The position numbers were made by a program, and so were the translations under genes. A DNA stretch of 64,000 nucleotides, taken from Candidatus Saccharimonadota bacterium (lineage in GTDB: Bacteria; Patescibacteriota; Saccharimonadia; Saccharimonadales; Saccharimonadaceae). Every line of letters begins with the position of its first letter. Positions within the stretch are counted from its first letter, which is position 1. The DNA lies in NCBI GenBank assembly GCA_017652765.1, contig JAGCAJ010000008.1, positions 9,230-73,229 on the forward strand, written 5' to 3'. This document shows positions 7,021 to 63,221 of the stretch, one piece after another. Below the pieces are notes generated by a model. It made no database searches, was not told the DNA's origin, and was given only the letters and a program-made list of their open reading frames with translations.

Positions 7021-7049
7021 ATTAAAATCGAATCGTCTCAGATGCAAAT
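7021..7049 (+). repeat. Left copy of 29-bp inverted repeat
   Basis: ATTAAAATCGAATCGTCTCAGATGCAAAT matches the reverse complement of 9458-9486 at 26/29. Confidence 0.9.
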
Positions 7050-7118: not shown

Positions 7119-8789
7119 TTAATCAACGGGGGGCTCGTCCATAGCGCCATTGTCGCTACCTGCGGAATCGTTGGATCCACCAACATCAGTATCATGTACT
7201 GGGATAGGATCGGGATCCGGAGCATCGCCGTTGTCAGTGTGGTCAGCCTTAGGACCTTCATCGTGGGGACCGTCGTCATGAGATTCGGAGTTACCCTGCT
7301 GGTACTGAGAATCCGGAACGTTGTCAGACTGACTGTTGCCCTGGTCGGGCTTCTGAGGTCCCGGTCCGGGATCATCGTTTTGTCCGCCACCCGTGTCGGC
7401 ATTACCCTGAGAACCAGAACCCTCATCGGGATGTTTCTCTTCCTTCCTGTCCTCTACTTCGGGCGTATTGTCCGGTTTTGAAGAAGGAGTAGGATCAGAT
7501 GGAGTATTGTCTTCTACCTCAGGTGTGGACGGAGTACTAGACTGAGCCTCGGGAGTGCTCGCGGACTGTGGCGTAGTTTGAGGAGCGGCAGGCTGAGTAG
7601 TCTGCGTCTTAGGGGTAGAGGTCTTTTTCTTGGTGGTCTTCTTCTTTGGCTTTGACGTGGTAGTCATATTCAGAACTTCGGGACGTTTGTCACGATAGTT
7701 TGCGCCAAATCTGATACCAACCTTGCCGTTCTTGAGGTAGAACGTAAACGTCATAGACGCTAAAGTCTCCTCATAATTAGCGGGTGTGGCCTGTCTCATG
7801 CTAGAGAAATCTCCAGCAATAAGATGATAATGGTCACCTGCTTTGGCGGTTAAAACCTCTCCCTTGGTCTCTCTAGGCCAGAGGAGCTCGATAAGAGCGA
7901 TAACATATTTCTGGTAATCCTTGTTGGTGTAGTAAATACCATTGACCTTGCGGAGCCAGATGTTAATGCCTTTACCCTCGGCACGAGCCGTGTCGGTTAG
8001 ATCGATGTACTCTCTACCGGCTTTCCAGTGATCGATGAGGTTAGTATCCTCACCGATTTTCTGGGATGTAACGAGTCTCATCCAAGATTCAAAGAGAATC
8101 GGATTCTCAAAGAATTCGCGGAAAAGCTCCATACGCCAGGCCTCTAATTCTTCTTCAGAGAAATCAATCTTTGCGCCGTTTTTTGCCGCTAATATCTTCT
8201 GTACCTGCTCGTTCGTGAGGTTGAAAGGATAGGATACCGCATCATCAATGGGCTTCTTATCCTTCTGGAGACCAGCCTTAACGGCGGCATAAGGTCTCTC
8301 GTCGTCGGTTACCTGCAGAGAATTATAGGTCAGAGGAGGCATACGCACTCCATCAGGGTCTTTCCCATAACCTTCGAACTGAGGATGATTCATAAAGAAA
8401 TCTTCGACTGCGTTTTCGTCAATGTCGGGCTGTTCTTCAAGAAAAGTCTTGAAAGCTTCAACATCTTCGGTGGTCAAATCTTCTTTATAGGCAAGCTCGT
8501 CTTTGTCGATGTCCGGATCTTCGTCGCGGATATCTTCGTACGTGCTAGCTTCGGCAGAATTGTCTGTCGTTTCCTCAGTTACAACTTCGGAAGCGCCGTC
8601 AGGTTCTTCGGCAATTTCGCCGGGAGTTTCTACGGTAGCTTCTTCGGTGCTAACCATGGGCTCTGCTAAACTTTTTACTACTTCGGGTTGCTCAGTATCT
8701 CTAGACATAATCTTCGGGATTTTCCAGAGGCCGAGACAGATTAATGCGATTGCCAAGATGGTAATCAATGCGGTTGTCAGTTTCTTCAT
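7119..8789 (-). CDS. Hypothetical membrane-anchored protein with acidic stalk, central globular domain and low-complexity P/S/D/Q tail
   Basis: ORF track 7119..8819; start moved to MKKLTTAL at 8789 because SD AAGGAGGTGA precedes it; one N-terminal TM. Confidence 0.8.
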   Translation of the reverse strand: MKKLTTALITILAIALICLGLWKIPKIMSRDTEQPEVVKSLAEPMVSTEEATVETPGEIAEEPDGASEVVTEETTDNSAEASTYEDIRDEDPDIDKDELAYKEDLTTEDVEAFKTFLEEQPDIDENAVEDFFMNHPQFEGYGKDPDGVRMPPLTYNSLQVTDDERPYAAVKAGLQKDKKPIDDAVSYPFNLTNEQVQKILAAKNGAKIDFSEEELEAWRMELFREFFENPILFESWMRLVTSQKIGEDTNLIDHWKAGREYIDLTDTARAEGKGINIWLRKVNGIYYTNKDYQKYVIALIELLWPRETKGEVLTAKAGDHYHLIAGDFSSMRQATPANYEETLASMTFTFYLKNGKVGIRFGANYRDKRPEVLNMTTTSKPKKKTTKKKTSTPKTQTTQPAAPQTTPQSASTPEAQSSTPSTPEVEDNTPSDPTPSSKPDNTPEVEDRKEEKHPDEGSGSQGNADTGGGQNDDPGPGPQKPDQGNSQSDNVPDSQYQQGNSESHDDGPHDEGPKADHTDNGDAPDPDPIPVHDTDVGGSNDSAGSDNGAMDEPPVD

Positions 8790-8805
8790 ATCTCTCACCT
8801 CCTTC

Positions 8806-9363
8806 TTAGATGAGTGCAAGAACTACAATAGCAATAGCGAGAATCGCTATAAATCCCCAGGCGACAGCGATACCAATCGTGTCAACGCCAGGAGTTTTGG
8901 CAACTCTTCCCTCTTTTTTATTCTTTTTGTCTACCAAATTCTGGATTCTGTAAGCGCTAACTGCGCCACAGATGAAAGGTAGAACGATAGGAATGAGCCA
9001 GAGAAGCCAGAGCGGGTTAAACTTGTTTTCTGTTCTGTGGTAAACCACGGACAGAATCAAGAGAACTGCATAGAGAGCTGAAAGAATGTTCCAGCTGACT
9101 CTACGTTTTCTACCTTCAAGGTTGATAGCCTGGAATAATGCAACAATCACGAGGAGAATTGCATAAAACCAAGGGCTAACCCACTGGAAAACTGCGCCGA
9201 AAATGGTATTTATCAGGATGTAAAACATCCAAACCCATGAAGCGAGCGGTTTTTTGCGGGTCTCCTTTGAAGAATCGTTGGCTACCTGGACCGAGAAAAG
9301 TCCTACGGCTGAGCCGAGAATTGTAATTACAACTACGTCGAAGAATGTTAACTGATCTAACAT
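8806..9363 (-). CDS. Hypothetical multi-pass membrane protein
   Basis: ORF track 8806..9417; start moved to MLDQLTFF at 9363 after SD ACAGGAGGT; about 6 hydrophobic segments. Confidence 0.75.
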   Translation of the reverse strand: MLDQLTFFDVVVITILGSAVGLFSVQVANDSSKETRKKPLASWVWMFYILINTIFGAVFQWVSPWFYAILLVIVALFQAINLEGRKRRVSWNILSALYAVLLILSVVYHRTENKFNPLWLLWLIPIVLPFICGAVSAYRIQNLVDKKNKKEGRVAKTPGVDTIGIAVAWGFIAILAIAIVVLALI

Positions 9364-9457
9364 AATTTGCACCTCCTGTATATGATATTTTCGGGATATA
9401 TGTGAACAGGAGGCCAACCCTCCTGTAGTAGAGAGTTAGTAGCACACTTCCAGATAC

Positions 9458-9486
9458 ATTTGTATCTGGGATGATTCGATTTTAAT
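9458..9486 (-). repeat. Right copy of 29-bp inverted repeat
   Basis: Reverse complement ATTAAAATCGAATCATCCCAGATACAAAT; its inner end overlaps a 9-bp-arm palindrome CCAGATACA-TT-TGTATCTGG (9450-9469). Confidence 0.9.
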
Positions 9487-9535
9487 GGTCGTCACTGAGA
9501 TGGTGCTTTGCAACTCTTCCCAATAGACTGATTCC

Positions 9536-9564
9536 ATTATAGCACACTTATGCTAAAAAGTCAA
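9536..9564 (-). promoter_or_regulatory. Sigma70-type promoter, copy C of the shared promoter
   Basis: TTGACT-17 bp (TTTTAGCATAAGTGTGC)-TATAAT; near-identical to promoters at 11750 and 13910. Confidence 0.8.
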
Positions 9565-9781
9565 TGCTAAAAACATATTTCGGTTATGTTTGTAACAGGG
9601 GTGGTAAAATGCTTACGGTGTTATTTTTGGCGATTTTGCTTGATTTTTTATTAAAATTATGCTTTTTGTGAAAATTCTAGTGGTAAATCGGAAAACGTTA
9701 TTGGTATTTTTAAAAATGCTATTGGCAAGTTTTAAGATAGTATTGGTAAAATTTGAGATGGTTGTGGCATTTTTGGGCATT

Positions 9782-9807
9782 AAAAAGCCCCGCGATAGAC
9801 GCGGGGC
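9782..9807 (-). terminator. Intrinsic terminator of the 336-aa gene
   Basis: GCCCCGCG-TCTAT-CGCGGGGC-TTTTT. Confidence 0.85.
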
Positions 9808-9887
9808 CAATACCATATTGCTCCCTCCAAATTGAATGGTGTGTGCATACTCTCTTCCCGGGCGGAGGGAGCATCAATAAGGAGGTG

Positions 9888-10892
9888 TTAAGTGGTAGCC
9901 TTGCCAGCATTATCAGGAGCAGGGTTACCACCGTTGTCGGCTTTCTTGTTGGACTTTTTGCCCTTTTTGGGCTGATTCTTAGGCTGATTCTGAGACTGGT
10001 TAGCTTGCTCGGACTTCTTTTCCCTCTTGGGGAGATGAAGCTTCTTCCTAAGCGCAAGTTTATCGCCGTTGAATTTATCAACGTAAGCCTCTACTTCTTC
10101 TATAGAAACTCTGTCGCCGAGGTTACCCTCTGCGTCGACCCTTCTATAAAAGGCCTTGAAGACTTCCTTCGGATCAACACCGTAGGTGTCGATTTCCTTC
10201 TGGATAGTAGCACAAGCTTCTTTGAAGGTTGCGTACTCTTTGTTGTCTTCGGAATCTTTGGAGTTGATAAACAGTACCTTGAACGGAACGAATTTGTGGT
10301 CGTCAGCTTTCTTGGCTTCTCTGATAGCATCTTCGACGAGTTCAGGATTCTTCTCTAAAACTTTAGGGAGAACCTTGCTCACAAAGTCAACAGAGAGAAC
10401 TCTGTCGTCCTCGATAGCGCCAATGATCCAGTCGCGAAGCTCGGGGGCCATCTCTAGGCCACGATCAAAATCGTAAATCTTGTCAGCAATCTTGCTGTAG
10501 AACTTAAAATCTCTCATCTGGTTTCTTGCCTCCTTAGGCTGTGTGGGTGTGGGATTTTCGGGTTTCTCTGTATTATCCTCAGATACAAGGGCTTCTTCAA
10601 TAATTCTAGCTGATATACCATCAGCTTCTTCCTTTGAGAGAAGTTCATCATCTGCGGGTTCTTCTTCGGTAGCTTCCTCAGGGGATTCATCCTCTGCAAT
10701 AGGCTCCTCTTCTACTTCGGGCTCTTTGGCCTCTTTTTTATTGGACTGTTTAGACTCTTCTCTTGCCTCTTCGGCAGGAGTTTCAGGTTCGCTGGTAGAG
10801 CTATCCTGCCCTGCAACTTCTTCTGCGATCTCTTCCGCCGGAGCGGCACCTAAAACTTCTTTTGCTCTGTCCAAAAAATTCTTCTTTGACAT
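9888..10892 (-). CDS. Hypothetical protein, highly acidic N-terminus and basic low-complexity C-terminus
   Basis: ORF track 9888..10898; SD AAGGAGG supports start MSKKNF at 10892. Confidence 0.8.
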   Translation of the reverse strand: MSKKNFLDRAKEVLGAAPAEEIAEEVAGQDSSTSEPETPAEEAREESKQSNKKEAKEPEVEEEPIAEDESPEEATEEEPADDELLSKEEADGISARIIEEALVSEDNTEKPENPTPTQPKEARNQMRDFKFYSKIADKIYDFDRGLEMAPELRDWIIGAIEDDRVLSVDFVSKVLPKVLEKNPELVEDAIREAKKADDHKFVPFKVLFINSKDSEDNKEYATFKEACATIQKEIDTYGVDPKEVFKAFYRRVDAEGNLGDRVSIEEVEAYVDKFNGDKLALRKKLHLPKREKKSEQANQSQNQPKNQPKKGKKSNKKADNGGNPAPDNAGKATT

Positions 10893-10957
10893 AATCAATT
10901 CCTCCTTATTTTAAAGAACTCTAATTTTAATAGCTACAATATGGTATTGTGGCGTCC

Positions 10958-10986
10958 ATTATATCACACATGCTTATTTTTGTCAA
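10958..10986 (-). promoter_or_regulatory. Sigma70-type promoter of the 336-aa gene
   Basis: TTGACA-17 bp (AAAATAAGCATGTGTGA)-TATAAT; partly resembles the shared promoter. Confidence 0.75.
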
Positions 10987-11033
10987 CTGTGGTACCATAA
11001 TTCTTAAGCTTTGGCTTGTGATATAATAGGGGT

Positions 11034-11441
11034 ATGAGTTTGATGAAAATAGCAGCAGATTACGCTGCAAGACACCAGGATAGATCGGATTTTAAGCATT
11101 CTTCAGGATATGCTAAGGCGCAAAATAAAGAGGGCTTCGGCGCGACTAGTACGGCCAGTTTTGAGGCGAGAAAAGCGATAGATGAATCACGGAAATTTGT
11201 AAGGGGATACGGTAATTCCCAGATAGCAAGTAGGTTGCGACCCGGAGAAAGGGCGCGCGTATATGAGAAGCCAAGATACGGTGAAGATGCTGGCACCCAG
11301 GGACAGAAAGATACAGGAATGGCGAGCCTAGCAGACAGAAAGAGACAGTTCAATGCGGGCGGACAAGACACGAAGAAAACAGGGGTGGTATTAGGCGATG
11401 CACGGGCGCCACAGGTGCCAAGAACACCAACAGGAATCTAA
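11034..11441 (+). CDS. Hypothetical hydrophilic protein (135 aa)
   Basis: ORF with TGA-TATAAT 6 nt upstream of ATG. Confidence 0.65.
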   Translation: MSLMKIAADYAARHQDRSDFKHSSGYAKAQNKEGFGATSTASFEARKAIDESRKFVRGYGNSQIASRLRPGERARVYEKPRYGEDAGTQGQKDTGMASLADRKRQFNAGGQDTKKTGVVLGDARAPQVPRTPTGI

Positions 11442-11474
11442 CTTAGCCAACAAAAAACAGCCGTCCAGGCTGTG

Positions 11475-11549
11475 TGGTGCGGGTAGAGAGAATCGAACTC
11501 TCATCCCAAGTTTGGAAAACTTGTATACTAACCACTGTACTATACCCGC
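11475..11549 (-). tRNA. tRNA-Gly (UCC)
   Basis: Anticodon arm CAAGT-TT TCC AA-ACTTG; TTCGATT T-loop; encoded CCA. Confidence 0.95.
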
Positions 11550-11552
11550 AAA

Positions 11553-11630
11553 TGGGGCGGGTGACTGGAATCGAACCAGCGACCTTCTGGACCACAATCA
11601 GACGCTCTAACCAACTGAGCTACACCCGCC
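11553..11630 (-). tRNA. tRNA-His (GUG)
   Basis: Anticodon GTG, extra 5-prime G (G-1), encoded CCA; one A-C mismatch in the anticodon stem. Confidence 0.93.
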
Positions 11631-11749
11631 ATAGTAAGCTTCTCCCCCATGGCAGAAATTATAGCATATTCCTCAGAAAAATGGAAGGAGTCTAAATGGC
11701 TCTAACTGGTAAAAATAGCATAAGCGGGATAGATTTTGGCATAAGCATA

Positions 11750-11778
11750 TTGACTTTTACACATAAGTGTGATATAAT
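11750..11778 (+). promoter_or_regulatory. Sigma70-type promoter, copy A of the shared promoter
   Basis: TTGACT-17 bp-TATAAT; CATAAG at 11719, 11740, 11762, 11784. Confidence 0.85.
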
Positions 11779-11856
11779 GTAAGCATAAGGTTAAATAATT
11801 AACCTTATAAAATTGTACATTAGGACTTAGGGACAGTATTCGCGGAGGTACAGCCA

Positions 11857-11955
11857 GTGGCGTACCAAAAGAAAGATACTTATTGCGGTCAATACAGAAG
11901 GAGTCAGTCAACTGATAACAATAAGGTCCGTTCCAAAAGTCATGCAAATAGATAA
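11857..11955 (+). CDS. Unannotated 32-aa small ORF (MAYQKKDTYCGQYRRSQSTDNNKVRSKSHANR); alternatively a structured sRNA
   Basis: GGAGGT, 7 nt, GTG start; TAA stop directly abuts the terminator; own promoter. Confidence 0.55.
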   Translation: MAYQKKDTYCGQYRRSQSTDNNKVRSKSHANR

Positions 11956-11977
11956 GCCCCCAGAAATGGGGGCTTTT
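11954..11977 (+). terminator. Intrinsic terminator
   Basis: AAGCCCCC-AGAAAT-GGGGGCTT-TT. Confidence 0.85.
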
Positions 11978-11996
11978 GCAATACTGTTTTATAAGG

Positions 11997-13088
11997 TTAT
12001 TCCTGGAAGAAAGCCAAGTAAACTACAGCGCCAAGACCCGCGCCGAGGATAACTGTTAGGACAATAGCTAAAGTCATAGCAAAGCTATGGGACTTTGGCT
12101 CTGGGGTGGAAATAATAGAGGCGCTATGTTTAACGGGGGTGGATTTGGCAGATTTGGTGGACTTAATAGGCCTAATAGATTTGGTGAATTTGGTGGATTT
12201 AGTAGGTTTAACAGGGGTGGATTTAGTGGCACCGGTAGCAATAGAAGTAGTGGAAGCGGTACTAGAGAGAGGACGTTTTTCTACGCTAACAGAGGTGAGG
12301 AAACGGGAACGGTCCCCTAGTGGGATGATTGAGTGCTTCTTTGGGGCGCTATCGAACAGAGGTTTTGGCTCTTCGACGAATTCTTTGGCTTCTGCTTCTA
12401 GGTGGTCGGAAAGCTGGTCTTCTAGGTCATCAGCAAGGATATCTAGCTCGTCTAGAGCGTCGAGCTCCTCATTAAAGTCGTTAACTTCTTTGGACAAATT
12501 GTCTGTCAGAACAGGAGTGGAATCGTCGTCAGCAAAACCGGCGAGGGCGAGGGTGAGATCGTCGTCGTTCATCATAGGTTCGACATCGTCAAAACCGGCA
12601 AACTCGTCAAAATCCTCTGGCTCTGGAGTAGGTTTTGGAGCGGGTTTTGAGATAGGCCTTGGGGTAGGCTTTGAAATGGCCTTCTGGGCGGGTTTTGAAG
12701 CGCGGGGAGAAACTCCGGAAATTTTAATAGAACGAGGGCCGGATTTAGCAGGTTTAACAGGGGTAGGAGCCGGAGCGCGGTGAGGAGTTACAGTTGGACG
12801 AGGGATCGGATGAGTAACAGGGGGCTTGTGAACGGCTGGACGAGAAGTTGGGCGCGCAAAATCAATGCGAAGACCGCGCGGAGCGACAGGGCGACGACGC
12901 GGAGCGGCGTTTGTGGCGACCGTAACCGTGGTCTTTTTGACGGTTTTTATAACTGGCTTTGGAGTAGGCTTTGAGACAGGTTTTAAGATGATCTTCTGGG
13001 CGGGTTTTTCAACTTTTTTGGACACGACAGGACGAGCCGAAACGGCAGGACGAGGACGCTGTGGGGCAAAGTCAATATATCTTGGCAT
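11997..13088 (-). CDS. Hypothetical Pro/Lys-rich protein with acidic middle and C-terminal TM anchor
   Basis: 363-aa ORF; KPTPKP repeats; C-terminal hydrophobic helix; TAATG overlap with tpiA stop. Confidence 0.75.
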   Translation of the reverse strand: MPRYIDFAPQRPRPAVSARPVVSKKVEKPAQKIILKPVSKPTPKPVIKTVKKTTVTVATNAAPRRRPVAPRGLRIDFARPTSRPAVHKPPVTHPIPRPTVTPHRAPAPTPVKPAKSGPRSIKISGVSPRASKPAQKAISKPTPRPISKPAPKPTPEPEDFDEFAGFDDVEPMMNDDDLTLALAGFADDDSTPVLTDNLSKEVNDFNEELDALDELDILADDLEDQLSDHLEAEAKEFVEEPKPLFDSAPKKHSIIPLGDRSRFLTSVSVEKRPLSSTASTTSIATGATKSTPVKPTKSTKFTKSIRPIKSTKSAKSTPVKHSASIISTPEPKSHSFAMTLAIVLTVILGAGLGAVVYLAFFQE

Positions 13089-13852
13089 TATTTAACTCTT
13101 TTAGCTATGTCAATTATATCAATAAATTGATCAGCAATCAAGGAGGAGCCACCGACGAGGAGGCCATTTACCCCTGGAATAGTGAGGTAAGCGCCACAGT
13201 TAGAAGGGTTGACGCTACCGCCATAGAGGACCGGAACGTCTTCGGCAGTCTTGCCAAAGGTGTCTTTTAGGTGTTTTCTAATTAAATCAATGCTGGCGGA
13301 AATATCATCCGGAACGGCGATGTGGGCGCCTTTAACAGAGGAGATAGCCCAGACAGGCTCGTAGGCGATGATAATTTTGTCTAGGTCCTCTTTAGCGATA
13401 TCAGAGAGGCCAGAGGTGAGCTGATCGCGCAAGACATCAGCGGTCTCGCCGAAAGTGCGCTCAGATTCGGTCTCGCCGATACAGAGGATGGCGGTGATAT
13501 TATTGCGGACGCAGGCGGAAACCTTATCTCTAATATCTTTATCGGTTTCATTAAAAACATAGCGACGCTCGGAGTGGCCAACAATACAATAATCCACTAG
13601 GCCACGAAGCTGAGCGACGGCAGTTTCTCCGGTGTAGGCGCCAAAATCACGGGCGCAACAATTCTGGGCACAAAGCTTAATTTTTTTGCGGTCAAGCTGG
13701 AGAGATAGAGGCTGAAGTGCAATCAGAGACGGCGCAACAGCGATTTGGATACCACGCGATACAGGGATGCGTTTTAAGAGTTTATGAAGATAGATGGAAG
13801 ATTCACCGATGGTGAAATTCATCTTCCAGTTGCCCACGATATAAGTTCTCAT
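13088..13852 (-). CDS. tpiA: Triosephosphate isomerase
   Basis: GNWKMN, GHSERR, AYEPVWAI, LYGGSV, GLLVGGSSL motifs; start moved to MRTYIVG at 13852 (-10 box 6 nt upstream). Confidence 0.97.
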   Translation of the reverse strand: MRTYIVGNWKMNFTIGESSIYLHKLLKRIPVSRGIQIAVAPSLIALQPLSLQLDRKKIKLCAQNCCARDFGAYTGETAVAQLRGLVDYCIVGHSERRYVFNETDKDIRDKVSACVRNNITAILCIGETESERTFGETADVLRDQLTSGLSDIAKEDLDKIIIAYEPVWAISSVKGAHIAVPDDISASIDLIRKHLKDTFGKTAEDVPVLYGGSVNPSNCGAYLTIPGVNGLLVGGSSLIADQFIDIIDIAKRVK

Positions 13853-13909
13853 ACTGATATTATAGCATAGTTGGTTTGGGATTTTTGTCGACTTTTTAGC
13901 ATAAACGTA

Positions 13910-13938
13910 TTGACTTTTAAGCATAAGTGTGATATAAT
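13910..13938 (+). promoter_or_regulatory. Sigma70-type promoter, copy B of the shared promoter
   Basis: TTGACT-17 bp-TATAAT; 44/49 identical to copy A over 13899-13947. Confidence 0.85.
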
Positions 13939-13991
13939 GTAAACATAGAACATTAAAACTTATGCTTGTATTAGATAAGGGGTGATTATTT

Positions 13992-14141
13992 ATGTTAAGA
14001 AGTATAAAAGAATTTATGGTTTTACTGTTGACAGGTCTCGCTATTTTATTAACTTATTTTGGAGGCACATGCGCCTACCACTACATCGATCAGAATGTAC
14101 CAGTTGTCATTGAAGGCACATTGCTAATCTATCATAATTAA
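13992..14141 (+). CDS. Unannotated 49-aa small membrane protein (MLRSIKEFMVLLLTGLAILLTYFGGTCAYHYIDQNVPVVIEGTLLIYHN)
   Basis: SD AAGGGGTGA, ATG, one TM helix, followed by a terminator; own promoter. Confidence 0.7.
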   Translation: MLRSIKEFMVLLLTGLAILLTYFGGTCAYHYIDQNVPVVIEGTLLIYHN

Positions 14142-14153
14142 ATAAGAACTTTA

Positions 14154-14185
14154 AAACTCCCGTGGAATCCGCGGGAGTTTCTTTT
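14154..14185 (+). terminator. Intrinsic terminator
   Basis: AAACTCCCGTGG-AAT-CCGCGGGAGTTT-CTTTT; the G-U pair forms only on the + strand. Confidence 0.85.
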
Positions 14186-14198
14186 GGTCTTTATAAGG

Positions 14199-14972
14199 TT
14201 ATTTCTTCTCTGTAACGCCGAGAATACCGCGGAGGGCGTAGGCGGTATCTTCGTGGCTTCTAACAGTAATAGTATCTATTCCCATCTGGACAACAGGGTA
14301 ATCGTTGCCACCCGGCTGGGTCATATCACCAAAGTAGAGGATCTCATCTTTTGTAACTTTTAGCTCTTCTAGCATGTGGGTCATGCCAAATTCCTTGTTC
14401 ATACCAGGGGTGATAGCATTAATAGAGGTCGTGCCGCCAATTTCGTAGTCGAATTCTGGGGCGATTTCCTTGCAACGGGCGACGATTTTTTCACGTTTTT
14501 TGCAATCTGGGTCCCAAGCATATTTCTCTTTGGTGCCAGCCTTTTGACCTAAAGCAGAGAAAGTAACCTGAGAAAGGCGATTTTCAATGATTTCGTCACC
14601 ATCTTTTAGCTTATCTTCTTCCCAGTAGCCGAGTTCCTTGGCGGAAGTTTCGATGGCGTTTGTGATTTTTTCTACTTGTTCATCTGTTAGAGGATAGTTA
14701 TAGACCTGTTCCCACTCTGTACCGGTGTAGCGGTAGTACTGGGTACCCTGAGCGACAAACAGATGGAGATTCTTGAGTTGGGCAGGGGTAGCACCGCGCT
14801 CGACCAGCCTATCGACAATCTGGATTAGGAATTGGTCGAATTTCTGGCCAGAGATAGGGCAGATTTGATAATAGTTAAGACAGTCGTTTAAGAGGTCGGC
14901 AATCTCGTCTGGAACAGGGGTCTTGGCGATATTTAAAGTTTGATCAATATCAAAGGCTAAAACTTTCTTCAT
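14199..14972 (-). CDS. HAD-IIB family phosphomannomutase (PMM-type)
   Basis: FDIDQTL motif I, EIGGTTSI, FGDMTQPGGNDY motif III/IV. Confidence 0.88.
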   Translation of the reverse strand: MKKVLAFDIDQTLNIAKTPVPDEIADLLNDCLNYYQICPISGQKFDQFLIQIVDRLVERGATPAQLKNLHLFVAQGTQYYRYTGTEWEQVYNYPLTDEQVEKITNAIETSAKELGYWEEDKLKDGDEIIENRLSQVTFSALGQKAGTKEKYAWDPDCKKREKIVARCKEIAPEFDYEIGGTTSINAITPGMNKEFGMTHMLEELKVTKDEILYFGDMTQPGGNDYPVVQMGIDTITVRSHEDTAYALRGILGVTEKK

Positions 14973-28327: not shown

Positions 28328-29377
28328 CTACTTAGATTCTCCTGAATCTTCTTTTGAGGGGAGGGCCTTTTCGCGGACTTTGGCTTCAATTTCTGCCATG
28401 AGCTCTGGCTTTTCTTTGAAGAGCTTCTTGACGGCTTCGCGACCTTGGCCCAAAGTCTCTCCGTTGTATTTCACAAAGGCGCCAGATTTTTCTAGGATGC
28501 CTTTTTCTACGGCGAGGTCTAGAATGTCGCCAGTTTTGCTAATACCTTCATTGTACATAATGTCGAATTCTGCGGTACGGAAAGGTGCAGAAATCTTGTT
28601 TTTGACAATCTTGACCTTGGTACGGTTACCGGAAATATTGTCGCCATCCTTTATTTGGCCGATACGACGAATGTCGAGACGGACAGAAGCATAAAACTTC
28701 AATGCGTTGCCACCGGTGGTAGTCTCAGGATTACCAAACATGACACCGATTTTCATGCGAATTTGGTTGATAAAAATAACAGTAGCTTTGGATTTGCTAA
28801 TAATACCGGTAAGCTTTCTCATGGCCTGAGACATGAGGCGAGCCTGGAGACCCATCTGGGCATCGCCCATATCGCCGTCGATTTCGGCTTGTGGAACTAG
28901 GGCGGCGACAGAGTCGACTACGATCAAGTCAACCGCACCAGAGCGGACTAGAGTCTCGCAGATTTCTAGAGCTTGTTCGCCGTTATCCGGCTGAGAAATA
29001 AGCAGATCTGCAGTGTTGACACCGATTCTCTTGGCGTAGGCCGGATCTAGGGCGTGCTCTGCGTCGATAAAGGCAGCCTGGCCACCTTGTTTTTGGATTT
29101 CGGCGATAGCATGGAGAGCTAGAGTAGTCTTACCGGAAGATTCTGGACCATAAATCTCTATGATACGACCCTTTGGGTAGCCACCGCCAAGTGCGAGGTC
29201 TAGAGAGAGTGAGCCAGACGGGAGAAGCTCTACGTCAATCTTCCTAGTTTCGCCAAGCTTCATAATAGAACCGTCGCCAAATTGCTTAGTGATTTGAGCA
29301 ATTGCAAGACTTAGGGCTTGGCTTTTGCCGCTGCCTGGCTGCTCGGTTTTTTCGGATTTTTCAGATTTTTTTGCCAT
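28328..29377 (-). CDS. recA: Recombinase A
   Basis: [54 protein letters not shown]. Confidence 0.99.
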
Positions 29378-53159: not shown

Positions 53160-53729
53160 TTAGGACAATCTCTTTGCGGAATTTTGGCTAAGTCGAGCGA
53201 GGTAGTTAGCGTAGTAAGAAATACGGTCTTTGTTGAATTTTTCTTTAGTGCCCCAAAAACCAATAACGGCATAGACCTCGGCGGTGAGAATCCTAAAGCA
53301 GAACTCAAGAAGATTCAAATTAAAATTGCTCCAGCCCTTCATAATTATAGGGCGGAAAATAGTGATTATGCTAAAAATTGGCGTGGGATTTTGGCAACGA
53401 AAACTCGTTCTATAATAGTCGCGATTTTTGTAAACGAAATGCAAAATTTTAGCATAAGCGATTTCTAAACTGCAATTCTGACGCGATACTTCGTGACGCA
53501 AATCCTTAATATTAGAATCGTATTTGTGGCTAAACTGAGTAATGGCGTCGTCAAGATTATCATAGTGGTCATAAAAAGTAGAGTCCCAGACTTTGGCCTC
53601 ACGGCTAAGATCGGGGACGCATAACCTAGCTATGTAATTTTTGCGAAGAAATTTGGCCAGAGCATGCTCTAGCTTTTCTTGAACTTTTAGAAAGCGGACG
53701 TCATTACGATTTTTAATCGAATGTCCCAT
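53160..53729 (-). CDS. TetR/AcrR-like transcriptional regulator
   Basis: HTH-like VPDLSREAKVWDSTFYDHY near the N-terminus; helical C-domain. Confidence 0.7.
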   Translation of the reverse strand: MGHSIKNRNDVRFLKVQEKLEHALAKFLRKNYIARLCVPDLSREAKVWDSTFYDHYDNLDDAITQFSHKYDSNIKDLRHEVSRQNCSLEIAYAKILHFVYKNRDYYRTSFRCQNPTPIFSIITIFRPIIMKGWSNFNLNLLEFCFRILTAEVYAVIGFWGTKEKFNKDRISYYANYLARLSQNSAKRLS

Positions 53730-63172: not shown

Positions 63173-63199
63173 TTAGCACTCTTGACATGGGAGTGCTAA
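63173..63199 (+). promoter_or_regulatory. CIRCE 1 of dnaK containing the -35 box
   Basis: TTAGCACTC-TTGACATGG-GAGTGCTAA, then TTTGC-TACAAT. Confidence 0.95.
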
Positions 63200-63221
63200 T
63201 TTGCTACAATGGGGATAAGAA

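What the first reader, a model, noticed from the sequence alone, without database searches (positions are those of the whole stretch)
9536..13947. One promoter/operator sequence reused three times to drive unrelated orphan genes
Seen: copy A (11739-11787) and copy B (13899-13947) are 44/49 identical. Copy C (9536-9564, minus) shares ATTGACTTTTWAGCATAAGTGTGMTATAATG with copy B. The promoter at 10958-10986 is a looser relative. All are TTGAC-17-TATAAT. In A, CATAAG recurs at 11719, 11740, 11762 and 11784 (21-22-bp period, two helical turns); in B, CATA(A/G) recurs at 13900, 13922 and 13944. The cargo differs completely (32-aa ORF, 49-aa membrane peptide, IR-flanked operon). Inference: a small regulon with a phased direct-repeat operator bound by an unknown regulator, or a self-copying promoter module that turns on new orphan genes.
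Basis: partly seen in the sequence, partly recalled or inferred. Interest (0 to 1): 0.72.

Follow-up and report, generated by a model that had tools for sequence, protein, structure and literature searches.

The report
Genus-wide strong promoter, not a private regulon
The three look-alike promoters are real, but they are local copies of a sharply defined consensus promoter used throughout this genus of rumen Saccharibacteria, mostly in front of lineage-specific genes, so this is a useful description of a promoter grammar and not a newly found three-gene regulon.

Summary
Copies A, B and C sit at the stated coordinates. A fourth copy (D) lies on another contig. A and B are the most similar of all 2016 pairs among the 64 strongest promoter-like sites in the genome (44/49).

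Most shared bases belong to the consensus promoter of this rumen Saccharibacteria genus: ta-TTGACTTTTt, a 17-bp spacer, TGTGnTATAAT, then a start motif. The remaining shared piece, the spacer CATAAG, defines a discrete subclass found across the genus. It occurs in 41 of 61 genomes (84 sites, 0 in reversed-pattern controls) and in 23 of 150 perfect promoters against about 1 expected. Outside the genus it is rare (11 of 147 genomes, one site each).

GCATAA also recurs at two other fixed positions, 5-6 nt upstream of the -35 and 4 nt after the -10, with any spacer type. These three positions match known RNA-polymerase-read elements: the UP-proximal site, the four-region spacer and the YRY start.

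The cargoes differ. A drives a conserved ~195-nt structured RNA, not a 32-aa ORF. B drives a conserved 49-aa membrane peptide. C drives a conserved leader RNA followed by a membrane protein.

Orthologous promoters in other species swap the spacer, which argues against a fixed regulon. A dedicated binding factor is not excluded.

The parts
11716..11790 (+). Promoter A. Upstream GCATAAG boxes at 11718-11724 and 11739-11745; -35 TTGACT at 11750-11755; spacer box ACATAAG at 11761-11767; TGTG at 11768-11771; -10 TATAAT at 11773-11778; start box GCATAAG at 11783-11789. Predicted start is A11785.
   Evidence: Sequence; scan 11/12 with TG; about 90% conserved in G077 from 11716 on. The start site is inferred from the YRY rule, 7 nt after the -10 (PMC12641261).
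11785..11982 (+). Cargo of A: an RNA of about 195 nt ending in the terminator 11954-11975 plus U-run. It is non-coding.
   Evidence: About 92% identical to G077 against about 78% in flanking genes. In G077 the SD (GGAGG to AGAAG) of the 32-aa ORF is lost and its frame is broken by a 1-nt deletion. The hairpin GGUAC/GUACC is replaced by GUGCG/CGCAC. MFE -59.7 kcal/mol, z -6.6. No Rfam family. Absent from the syntenic site in G078.
13890..13948 (+). Promoter B. Upstream box GCATAA at 13899-13904 (inside GACTTTTTAGCATAA, a 22-nt-shifted copy of the -35 plus spacer); -35 at 13910-13915; spacer box GCATAAG at 13921-13927; TGTG at 13928-13931; -10 at 13933-13938; start ACATAG at 13943-13948. Predicted start is A13945.
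   Evidence: The core is conserved in G077 and G078. The upstream box is present in G078 and degraded in G077.
13992..14180 (+). Cargo of B: a 49-aa single-pass membrane peptide ORF (13992-14141) and its terminator (14154-14180).
   Evidence: ORF. The G077 ortholog has the same length and stop, 32/49 aa identical (counted by hand from the alignment), with about 76% DNA identity. Terminator. No Pfam family.
9536..9564 (-). Promoter C (TTGACTTTTTAGCATAAGTGTGCTATAAT). Predicted start is at 9529.
   Evidence: Conserved in G077 (AGCGTAAG, A at -13) and G078 (AAGCATAAG).
9395..9529 (-). Cargo of C, part 1: a conserved 5' leader RNA. It has a P1 stem, the invariant GACGACCAUUAAAAUCGAAUCAU, the hairpin CCCAGAUAC/GUAUCUGG, GUGUGCU, and a terminator-like hairpin CAGGAGGG..CCUCCUG.
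   Evidence: 100% identical to G077 over about 100 nt. In a six-species alignment, 7 of 28 pairs are kept through double changes, and the core is invariant. No Rfam hit. An inverted copy of the core lies at 7021-7049.
7119..9363 (-). Cargo of C, part 2: a 185-aa multi-pass membrane protein (8806-9363) and a 566-aa membrane-anchored acidic protein (7119-8819).
   Evidence: ORFs. No Pfam family above cut-off. Homologs in only 4 of 60 genomes of the genus, at 27-31% identity.
10958..10986 (-). Looser relative: a perfect TTGACA-17-TATAAT promoter with TGTG and spacer ATAAGCATG. It drives the 336-aa acidic protein (9888-10898).
   Evidence: The cargo has no Pfam family.
11801..11811 (+). AACCTTATAAA, one of only three copies of this 11-mer in the genome. 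The other two are inverted, at 11988-11998 and 14190-14200, just past the terminators of A and B.
   Evidence: inverted repeats I5 and I6 and direct repeat D12. In G077 the 5'/3' complementarity around A is kept by a double change (TAACC/GGTTA to TAGCC/GGCTA).

Best explanation
A, B, C and the fourth copy D are near-perfect examples of the housekeeping (sigma-70/sigma-A type) promoter consensus of this genus of rumen Saccharibacteria. They most likely work as strong promoters read directly by RNA polymerase.

The consensus has five parts:
- an optional upstream GCATAA(A)-rich box at the UP-proximal position;
- TTGAC followed by a T-run;
- a spacer of the general T-tract / GC-ish / AT-tract / G-rich type, whose sharpest form is TTTTT-AGC-ATAA-G;
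- a Gram-positive-style TGTG-extended -10;
- a C-A-T start motif whose A lies 7 nt after the -10.

The copies resemble each other because all sit at the top of this consensus. A and B resemble each other even more because they are also related by descent, through local duplication or gene conversion of a promoter-plus-5'-end module.

The promoters are attached to lineage-specific cargo: a structured small RNA, a small membrane peptide, a leader RNA plus membrane proteins, and a 210-aa protein without known domains.

Shown: the sequence grammar, its genus-wide distribution, the discrete CATAAG subclass, and the conservation and nature of the cargo. Inferred: promoter activity, start sites, and direct reading of the boxes by polymerase.
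For: - Genome consensus, built from 64 and then 102 sites: ta-TTGACTTTTt ... A(A/T)n-TGTG-n-TATAAT-r.AA..ATA.
- The frame TTGACTTTT-N9-TGTGNTATAAT is present in 29 of 31 genomes of the genus, up to 20 sites each, with 0 in reversed controls.
- The CATAAG spacer occurs in 23/150 against 1.0 expected and is linked to A at -13 (19/23 against 30/127). It is found in 41/61 genomes at 84 sites. The flanks and cargo are mostly unrelated.
- GCATAA upstream of TTGAC peaks at gaps of 5-6 nt (34/58) with all spacer types. GCATAA after TATAAT peaks at a gap of 4 nt (20/28), which puts C-A-T with A at +7.
- Kuo et al. 2025 (PMC12641261) describe a four-region spacer (T-tract, low-signal/GC, AT-tract, G-rich with Ex) that changes strength up to 600-fold. 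They also describe a YRY start element centred 7 nt after the -10, and TRTG in Firmicutes. All of this matches.
- Orthologs of C's cargo keep the frame and leader but not the spacer.
- No functional theme links the cargoes.
- A-B is the pairwise outlier in the genome. Similar promoter-plus-5'UTR pairs with different cargo occur in G015 and G022.
Against: - An exact hexamer that is about 20-fold over-represented is sharper than the compositional spacer preference described for polymerase.
- The same 6-7-mer at three positions 22 bp apart is an odd coincidence if three different polymerase contacts are involved.
- A leaderless 230-aa membrane gene keeps AAGCATAAG without any -35 in five species. 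This could equally mark a factor site.
- Perfect -35/-10 promoters with a conserved spacer word are also what tightly repressed promoters look like.
- No expression or start-site data could be obtained.
Confidence: 0.55

Rival explanations
1. A genus-specific DNA-binding protein (a repressor or global factor) recognises (A)GCATAAG. Its sites sit on one face of the helix at about -46, -24 and -2. Promoters carrying them, including A, B, C and D, form a co-regulated set.
For: - Discrete subclass (23 against 1 expected).
- Near restriction to one genus (41/61 against 11/147 genomes).
- Three fixed positions 22 bp apart.
- The box is conserved without a -35 in five orthologous promoters.
- D's homolog in G062 keeps TAGCATAAG.
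- The genome does use operators that overlap promoters, such as CIRCE.
Against: - The boxes occur about as often alone as together: 4/34 upstream-box promoters and 5-6/20 start-box promoters have the CATAAG spacer, against a 15% baseline.
- C-type orthologs swap the spacer.
- The cargoes have no common function.
- No LytTR-domain protein is encoded; only one OmpR-type regulator was found.
- The proposed TetR-like ORF has no Pfam hit.
- There is no genus-wide box at -66.
Confidence: 0.25
2. The resemblance is mainly historical. A promoter-plus-5'-end cassette is repeatedly copied by local duplication, gene conversion or a small mobile unit and captures or spawns new short genes. The CATAAG word is a frozen passenger of that cassette.
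For: - A-B identity extends into low-information positions (25/30).
- The 11-mer AACCTTATAAA occurs only three times in the genome, all at the ends of the A and B units.
- G022 has two adjacent paralogs (35% aa identity) with identical promoter plus 5'UTR. G015 has 2-3 copies within 4.4 kb with similar 5'UTRs and unrelated cargo.
- The A unit is present in G000 and G077 but missing at the syntenic site in G078.
- Perfect promoters cluster and precede Pfam-less genes.
Against: - Across species, homology between copies stops at the promoter edges.
- There is no interior homology between the A and B units (z 1.8).
- There are no target-site duplications and no transposase.
- Species this diverged (TyrRS 65-75% identity) could not keep a neutral hexamer exact in 84 sites, so selection on the word is still required.
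Confidence: 0.15
3. The similarity is a chance resemblance of unrelated AT-rich intergenic sequences.
For: None beyond the AT-richness of intergenic DNA.
Against: Reversed-pattern controls give 0 hits in every search. A-B is 4.6 sd above the mean of promoter pairs.
Confidence: 0.01

Closest known systems
Gram-positive sigma-A promoters with the -16 'TRTG' extended -10 (Bacillus subtilis type)
   Same: TTGACA-like -35, 17-bp spacer, TATAAT, and TRTG immediately upstream of the -10. The motif is named as common in Firmicutes in PMC12641261.
   Different: Here the consensus is much sharper. It continues into a fixed T-run after the -35 and, in a subclass, an exact CATAAG word in the spacer. The organism is a candidate-phyla-radiation bacterium with no mapped start sites.
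Four-region spacer and YRY 'start' element model of bacterial core promoters (Kuo et al. 2025, NAR, PMC12641261)
   Same: TTTTT / AGC / ATAA / GTGTG follows the T-tract, GC-ish, AT-tract, G-rich order. TATAAT-N4-G-CAT puts YRY with R exactly 7 nt after the -10.
   Different: That model describes compositional preferences. It does not predict one exact hexamer 20-fold over expectation, nor the same word at three positions. Patescibacteria does not occur in the paper's text.
UP element, proximal subsite (alpha-CTD contact, about -46 to -38)
   Same: The upstream box GCATAAAAAGTA sits directly against the -35 and is A-rich, at the position of the proximal UP subsite (the position rule is from established knowledge).
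   Different: The GCAT prefix is not part of the E. coli UP consensus. Contact with the alpha subunit is untested.
LytTR-type operators (9-bp direct repeats with 12-13 bp between them, upstream of peptide and bacteriocin genes)
   Same: A has direct repeats with a 21-22 bp period at -66 and -45 and drives a short product. B drives a small membrane peptide.
   Different: No LytTR-domain protein is encoded. The -35 is perfect instead of weak. The -66 box is not recurrent in the genus.
Sets of near-identical strong early promoters in phage genomes
   Same: Several near-consensus promoters lie close together, each driving a short orphan gene with its own terminator.
   Different: A, B and C lie between tRNA, tpiA and tyrS genes and are syntenic in two other species. 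No phage genes are nearby. The viral contigs carrying the pattern are unrelated low-GC phages.

Membership tests
Housekeeping sigma-70/sigma-A promoter with extended -10 | -35 hexamer close to TTGACA and -10 close to TATAAT, 17 +/- 1 bp apart | tested here: met
   11-12 of 12 matches with a 17-nt spacer at all four sites.
Housekeeping sigma-70/sigma-A promoter with extended -10 | TG (TRTG) one base upstream of the -10 | tested here: met
   TGTG-n-TATAAT in A, B, C and D; G at -14 in 86% and T at -15 in 83% of 64 sites.
Housekeeping sigma-70/sigma-A promoter with extended -10 | Transcription actually starts about 7 nt downstream of the -10 | not testable with these tools
The start is inferred from C-A-T/C-A-G at +6 to +8.
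Transcription-factor regulon with a shared operator | Motif distinct from the general promoter consensus | tested here: inconclusive
   About two thirds of the shared bases are general consensus. CATAAG is a discrete subclass, but it fits the general spacer composition rule.
Transcription-factor regulon with a shared operator | Motif kept upstream of orthologous genes across species | tested here: inconclusive
   Kept for the 230-aa leaderless membrane gene in 5 species and partly for D. Not kept for C's orthologs in G048, G065 and G022.
Transcription-factor regulon with a shared operator | Functionally coherent target genes | tested here: not met
   The cargoes include a small RNA, membrane peptides, ProRS, UvrC, TrmD and a flotillin-like protein (named from their translated N-termini, not by a family search), plus many Pfam-less proteins. 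Only one ortholog group and one paralog pair were found.
Transcription-factor regulon with a shared operator | A cognate DNA-binding protein and co-expression | not testable with these tools
   No binding or expression data. The candidate ORF 53160-53729(-) has no Pfam hit. One OmpR-type regulator lies at G000:C2:10930-11151.
LytTR direct-repeat operator | LytTR-domain regulator encoded in the genome | tested here: not met
   PF04397 gives no match in the 95%-complete genome, while the controls respond.
LytTR direct-repeat operator | Paired direct repeats about 21 bp apart upstream of the -35, recurrent among targets | tested here: not met
   Present in A only. Genus-wide gaps of 18-46 nt are flat, with no peak at 26-28.
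Mobile or duplicated promoter cassette | Copies homologous beyond the functionally constrained positions | tested here: inconclusive
   True for A/B and for the pairs in G015 and G022. Not true between species or inside the A and B units.
Mobile or duplicated promoter cassette | Terminal repeats, target duplications or a mobilising enzyme | tested here: not met
   A 13-bp inverted repeat flanks A's cargo, but it co-varies like an RNA helix in G077. No target duplication and no transposase were seen.

The most novel reading that the evidence does not exclude
In this genus a single recognition word, (A)GCATAAG, acts as a portable promoter module. It can be placed at any of three positions two helical turns apart (about -46, -24, -2). 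It is read either by a lineage-specific factor bound to RNA polymerase or by an altered polymerase surface. This would be a phase-locked grammar that tunes or gates the strongest promoters and is preferentially attached to newly arisen genes.
Probability: 0.2. Interest if true: 0.6.

Novelty: new variant of a known kind. Interest (0 to 1): 0.4.

Why it matters
Saccharibacteria and other candidate-phyla-radiation bacteria have only recently become genetically tractable (my own knowledge, not checked here). Three full-text searches of the paper library found no promoter description for them. A precise, genus-wide consensus gives ready-made strong native promoters for expression constructs, with optional upstream, spacer and start boxes. 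It also gives a yardstick for annotating small genes and RNAs in these genomes.

Perfect-consensus promoters preferentially precede genes without known domains (3/20 against 12/19, p = 0.008). This bears on how reduced epibiont genomes express lineage-specific surface and small proteins.

Following the cargo turned up two conserved, unannotated RNAs: a ~195-nt small RNA and a leader conserved across at least six species. Both are better candidates for new biology than the promoter resemblance itself.

Tried and rejected
- Rfam at gathering and permissive thresholds found only tRNAs in 9000-14400.
- The small SRP RNA and 6S RNA models gave no match in the genome, so A's RNA could not be placed. 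Its absence from G078 argues against a universal RNA.
- The single metagenome scan with a conserved 23-mer of A's RNA returned only one near-identical strain whose contig starts inside the RNA. It adds no covariation data and no promoter.
- RNAalifold on two sequences misaligned the variable hairpin and reported no double changes. I read the hairpin replacement by eye.
- Tandem Repeats Finder does not call the 21-22-nt units in A.
- The LytTR lead was rejected.
- Interior homology between the A and B units is not significant (z 1.8).
- Phage origin: 11 viral contigs carry the pattern, but most are one family of low-GC (about 35%) phage contigs of 136-196 kb with a single orthologous site. This is uninformative.
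- Gene conversion of B's upstream box from A was considered and dropped, because G078 also has the box at B.
- The TetR-like candidate has no Pfam support at E <= 0.001, although its N-terminus looks TetR-like by eye.
- Three literature searches found no promoter study of Saccharibacteria.

Full report
**Where this is.** The window is contig C4:9230-73229 of a 748-kb, 21-contig, 44% GC genome. Its tyrosyl-tRNA synthetase is 97% identical to a goat-rumen Candidatus Saccharibacteria MAG (G077) and 88% to a second MAG (G078). It is 59-75% identical to dozens of other gut and oral Saccharibacteria MAGs, mostly from ruminants, some labelled Nanosyncoccus.

**Observation.** Every coordinate and count in the finding is correct.
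- A (11739-11787) and B (13899-13947) are 44/49 identical. The repeat finder extends this to 54 nt at 89%.
- C, read on the minus strand from 9564 to 9536, is TTGACTTTTTAGCATAAGTGTGCTATAAT.
- The site at 10986-10958 is a looser relative.
- All four are TTGAC(T/A)-17-TATAAT with a TG-extended -10.
- The CATAAG positions in A and the CATA(A/G) positions in B are as stated.
- A fourth close copy (D, 2 mismatches of 30) lies on contig C10 at 28785-28813(-). After D there is a gap to 6 or more mismatches.
- In a set of 64 strong promoter-like sites, A-B is the most similar of 2016 pairs: 44/49 against a next best of 38, with mean 24.9 and sd 4.1. At 30 low-information positions it scores 25/30 against a next best of 19.

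**How much is just the lineage's promoter.** A position table from 64 sites, and a listing of 102 sites, show a sharp consensus: ta-TTGACTTTTt, then A at -20, A/T at -19, TGTG, any base, TATAAT, then an A-rich stretch and ATA around the expected start. About two thirds of the bases shared by A, B and C are therefore ordinary for this genome.
- The frame TTGACTTTT-N9-TGTGNTATAAT occurs in 29 of 31 genomes of the genus, up to 20 times per genome, and never in the reversed control.
- In the own genome two spacer endings dominate, ATC-TGTG (16 sites) and AAG-TGTG (13 sites).

**What is left over.** A, B and C share C-A-T-A-A-G just before TGTG; D has CGTAAG, one base different.
- Among 150 perfect-frame promoters listed for the genus, 23 have exactly CATAAG there, against 1.0 expected from the column frequencies. 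CAT precedes AAG in 23/60 cases but precedes other triplets in only 3/90. The class is linked to A at -13 (19/23 against 30/127).
- The 17-mer CATAAGTGTGNTATAAT is present in 41 of 61 genomes of the genus (84 sites, 0 controls). In the order outside the family it occurs in only 11 of 147 genomes, once each.
- Flanks of 37 distinct sites share nothing upstream of 'ta' before the -35. Downstream they share only the general g.aAg.ATAg start region.
- Their cargoes are almost all unrelated. They include small membrane or secreted proteins and what read, from their translated N-termini only, as ProRS, UvrC, TrmD and a flotillin-like protein. Only one ortholog group and one paralog pair were found.
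- So the three copies belong to a genus-wide promoter subclass, not to a private set.

**The phased boxes.**
- In the own genome GCATAA is not enriched overall (462 against 448 expected). Inside promoter windows, however, it piles up at -11, +11 and +33 relative to the -35 start.
- Genus-wide, GCATAA upstream of TTGAC has a sharp peak at gaps of 5-6 nt (34 of 58 hits across gaps 0-24). It occurs with all spacer types, often as GCATAAAAAGTA-TTGAC.
- GCATAA downstream of TATAAT has a sharp peak at a gap of 4 nt (20 of 28).
- The boxes do not clearly co-occur. Only 4/34 promoters with the upstream box, and 5-6/20 with the start box, have the CATAAG spacer, against a baseline of about 15%.
- A's fourth box at 11719 has no genus-wide counterpart: gaps of 18-46 nt are flat. 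It reads CATTAA in G077.
- B's upstream box is degraded in G077 but present in G078.

**Fit to known polymerase-read elements.** Kuo et al. 2025 (PMC12641261) analysed mapped start sites in 49 bacteria and ran saturation mutagenesis.
[quoted passage not shown] Spacer composition can change strength up to 600-fold.
- They also report a 3-bp Y-R-Y 'start' element that fixes the start site when centred 7 nt after the -10.
- TTTTT-AGC-ATAA-GTGTG follows that order exactly, and TATAAT-N4-G-C-A-T puts the A at +7.
- The upstream box lies where the proximal UP subsite lies (established knowledge).
- Each box therefore has an ordinary explanation as a polymerase contact. What remains unexplained is why one exact word serves at all three places and why the spacer version is so discrete.

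**Tests of the regulon idea.**
- Homologs of C's membrane protein exist in only 4 of 60 genomes. In G048, G065 and G022 they keep the perfect hexamers, T-run, TGTG and the whole leader RNA, but carry the spacers TGGTATTG, TACCCCTG and TGCGCATC.
- D's homologs show TAGCATAAG (G062), TAGTAAAAG (G022) or no -35 at all (G048).
- In contrast, a leaderless 230-aa membrane gene keeps AAGCATAAG-(T/C)(G/A)TG-n-TATAAT without any -35 in five species, including this genome at C4:76036.
- The box is therefore functional and selectable, but evolutionarily labile. It is not tied to a fixed gene set.
- The 21-22-bp direct-repeat layout recalled LytTR operators, but no LytTR domain is encoded. There is one OmpR-type regulator. 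The ORF proposed as TetR-like has no Pfam hit.

**Tests of the copying idea.**
- A and B share promoter, start region and a 3' 11-mer. AACCTTATAAA occurs three times in the genome, all at these units. Their interiors are unrelated (z 1.8).
- G022 has two adjacent paralogs (35% aa identity) with identical promoter plus 5'UTR. G015 has two to three copies within 4.4 kb with similar 5'UTRs and unrelated cargo.
- The A unit is present in G000 and G077 but absent from the syntenic site of G078.
- Local duplication or conversion of a promoter-plus-5'-end module therefore does happen, and it explains the extra A-B similarity. It cannot by itself keep an exact hexamer across species this diverged.

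**Consensus promoters and orphan genes.** The genome has 27 sites of TTGAC-N13-TGTGnTATAAT. Of 20 cargo proteins, only 3 reach a Pfam cut-off: a RelA/SpoT-type synthetase, Wzz and a sortase. By comparison, 12 of 19 randomly drawn ORFs of 100-350 aa reach a cut-off. One drawn ORF was itself a cargo and was left out. Fisher p = 0.008. The link between a 'full' promoter and Pfam-less genes thus holds for the whole consensus class, not only for the CATAAG form.

**What the three promoters drive.**
- A: a ~195-nt RNA (11785-11982). It is about 92% identical to G077, against about 78% in neighbouring genes. In G077 the Shine-Dalgarno sequence of the 32-aa ORF is lost and its frame is broken. A hairpin is replaced by a different hairpin at the same place, and the 5'/3' complementarity is kept by a double change. 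The fold is far more stable than shuffles (z -6.6). It matches no Rfam family.
- B: a 49-aa membrane peptide conserved as a coding sequence in G077 (32/49 aa by hand count, same length).
- C: a leader RNA that is 100% identical to G077 over about 100 nt and conserved in six species. It has covarying stems, an invariant 23-nt core and a terminator-like hairpin. It is followed by two membrane proteins.
- D: a 210-aa protein without known domains.

**Verdict.**
- Best explanation (0.55): these are top-of-consensus, polymerase-read strong promoters of the genus, with A and B additionally related by local duplication.
- A dedicated factor reading the box (0.25) and cassette copying as the main cause (0.15) remain open.

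Noticed in passing
window 9395-9529 (-); also L129, L136, L137, L138 and G077: The leader RNA downstream of promoter C is conserved in at least six species. It has covarying stems, an invariant core GACGACCAUUAAAAUCGAAUCAU and a terminator-like hairpin, and it matches no Rfam family. It is a candidate new cis-regulatory RNA for a membrane-protein family. An inverted copy of its core lies at 7021-7049, so a DNA-level role (an invertible segment) is an alternative.
   Followed up: partly
window 11785-11982 (+): A structured small RNA of about 195 nt is conserved at 92% in G077 and in one metagenome contig (L144). It is absent from the syntenic site of G078. The 32-aa ORF inside it is not conserved.
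   Followed up: partly
window 11450-11700: The tRNA-Gly/tRNA-His pair with its terminator is inverted relative to its flanks when compared with both G077 and G078. One breakpoint lies just upstream of promoter A's outermost box (about 11716).
   Followed up: partly
window 9780-9887 (-): The 3' untranslated region after the 336-aa acidic protein gene is about 97% identical to G077, against 78% in the flanks. It contains a long hairpin (CUCCCUCC...GGAGGGAG) plus a terminator. Rfam gives only sub-threshold hits.
   Followed up: no
window 63173-63210 (+) and G000:C7:43004: Perfect CIRCE elements (TTAGCACTC-N9-GAGTGCTAA) overlap the -35 and spacer of two promoters. This is an example of how a known operator looks in this genome.
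   Followed up: no
G000:C19:12000-27000 (-): Five perfect-consensus promoters lie on one strand within 15 kb, four of them with the ATC-TGTGC spacer. Each drives a short Pfam-less protein, so this may be an accessory island. Several consensus promoters elsewhere are followed by a shared 5' motif, atatggggtgg(t/c)(g/a)ct(c)tt(t)a.
   Followed up: no
window 13852-13870 (-) and G000:C4:76036: tpiA and a conserved 230-aa membrane gene start 6 nt after a TG-extended -10, so they are leaderless-type starts. Housekeeping genes seem to use this form, while Pfam-less genes use the full -35 plus SD form.
   Followed up: partly
L009 (G022:C5:14659-15700): Two adjacent paralogous genes (35% aa identity) carry promoter and 5'UTR that are identical over about 100 nt. 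This suggests gene conversion or very strong constraint on the non-coding part.
   Followed up: no
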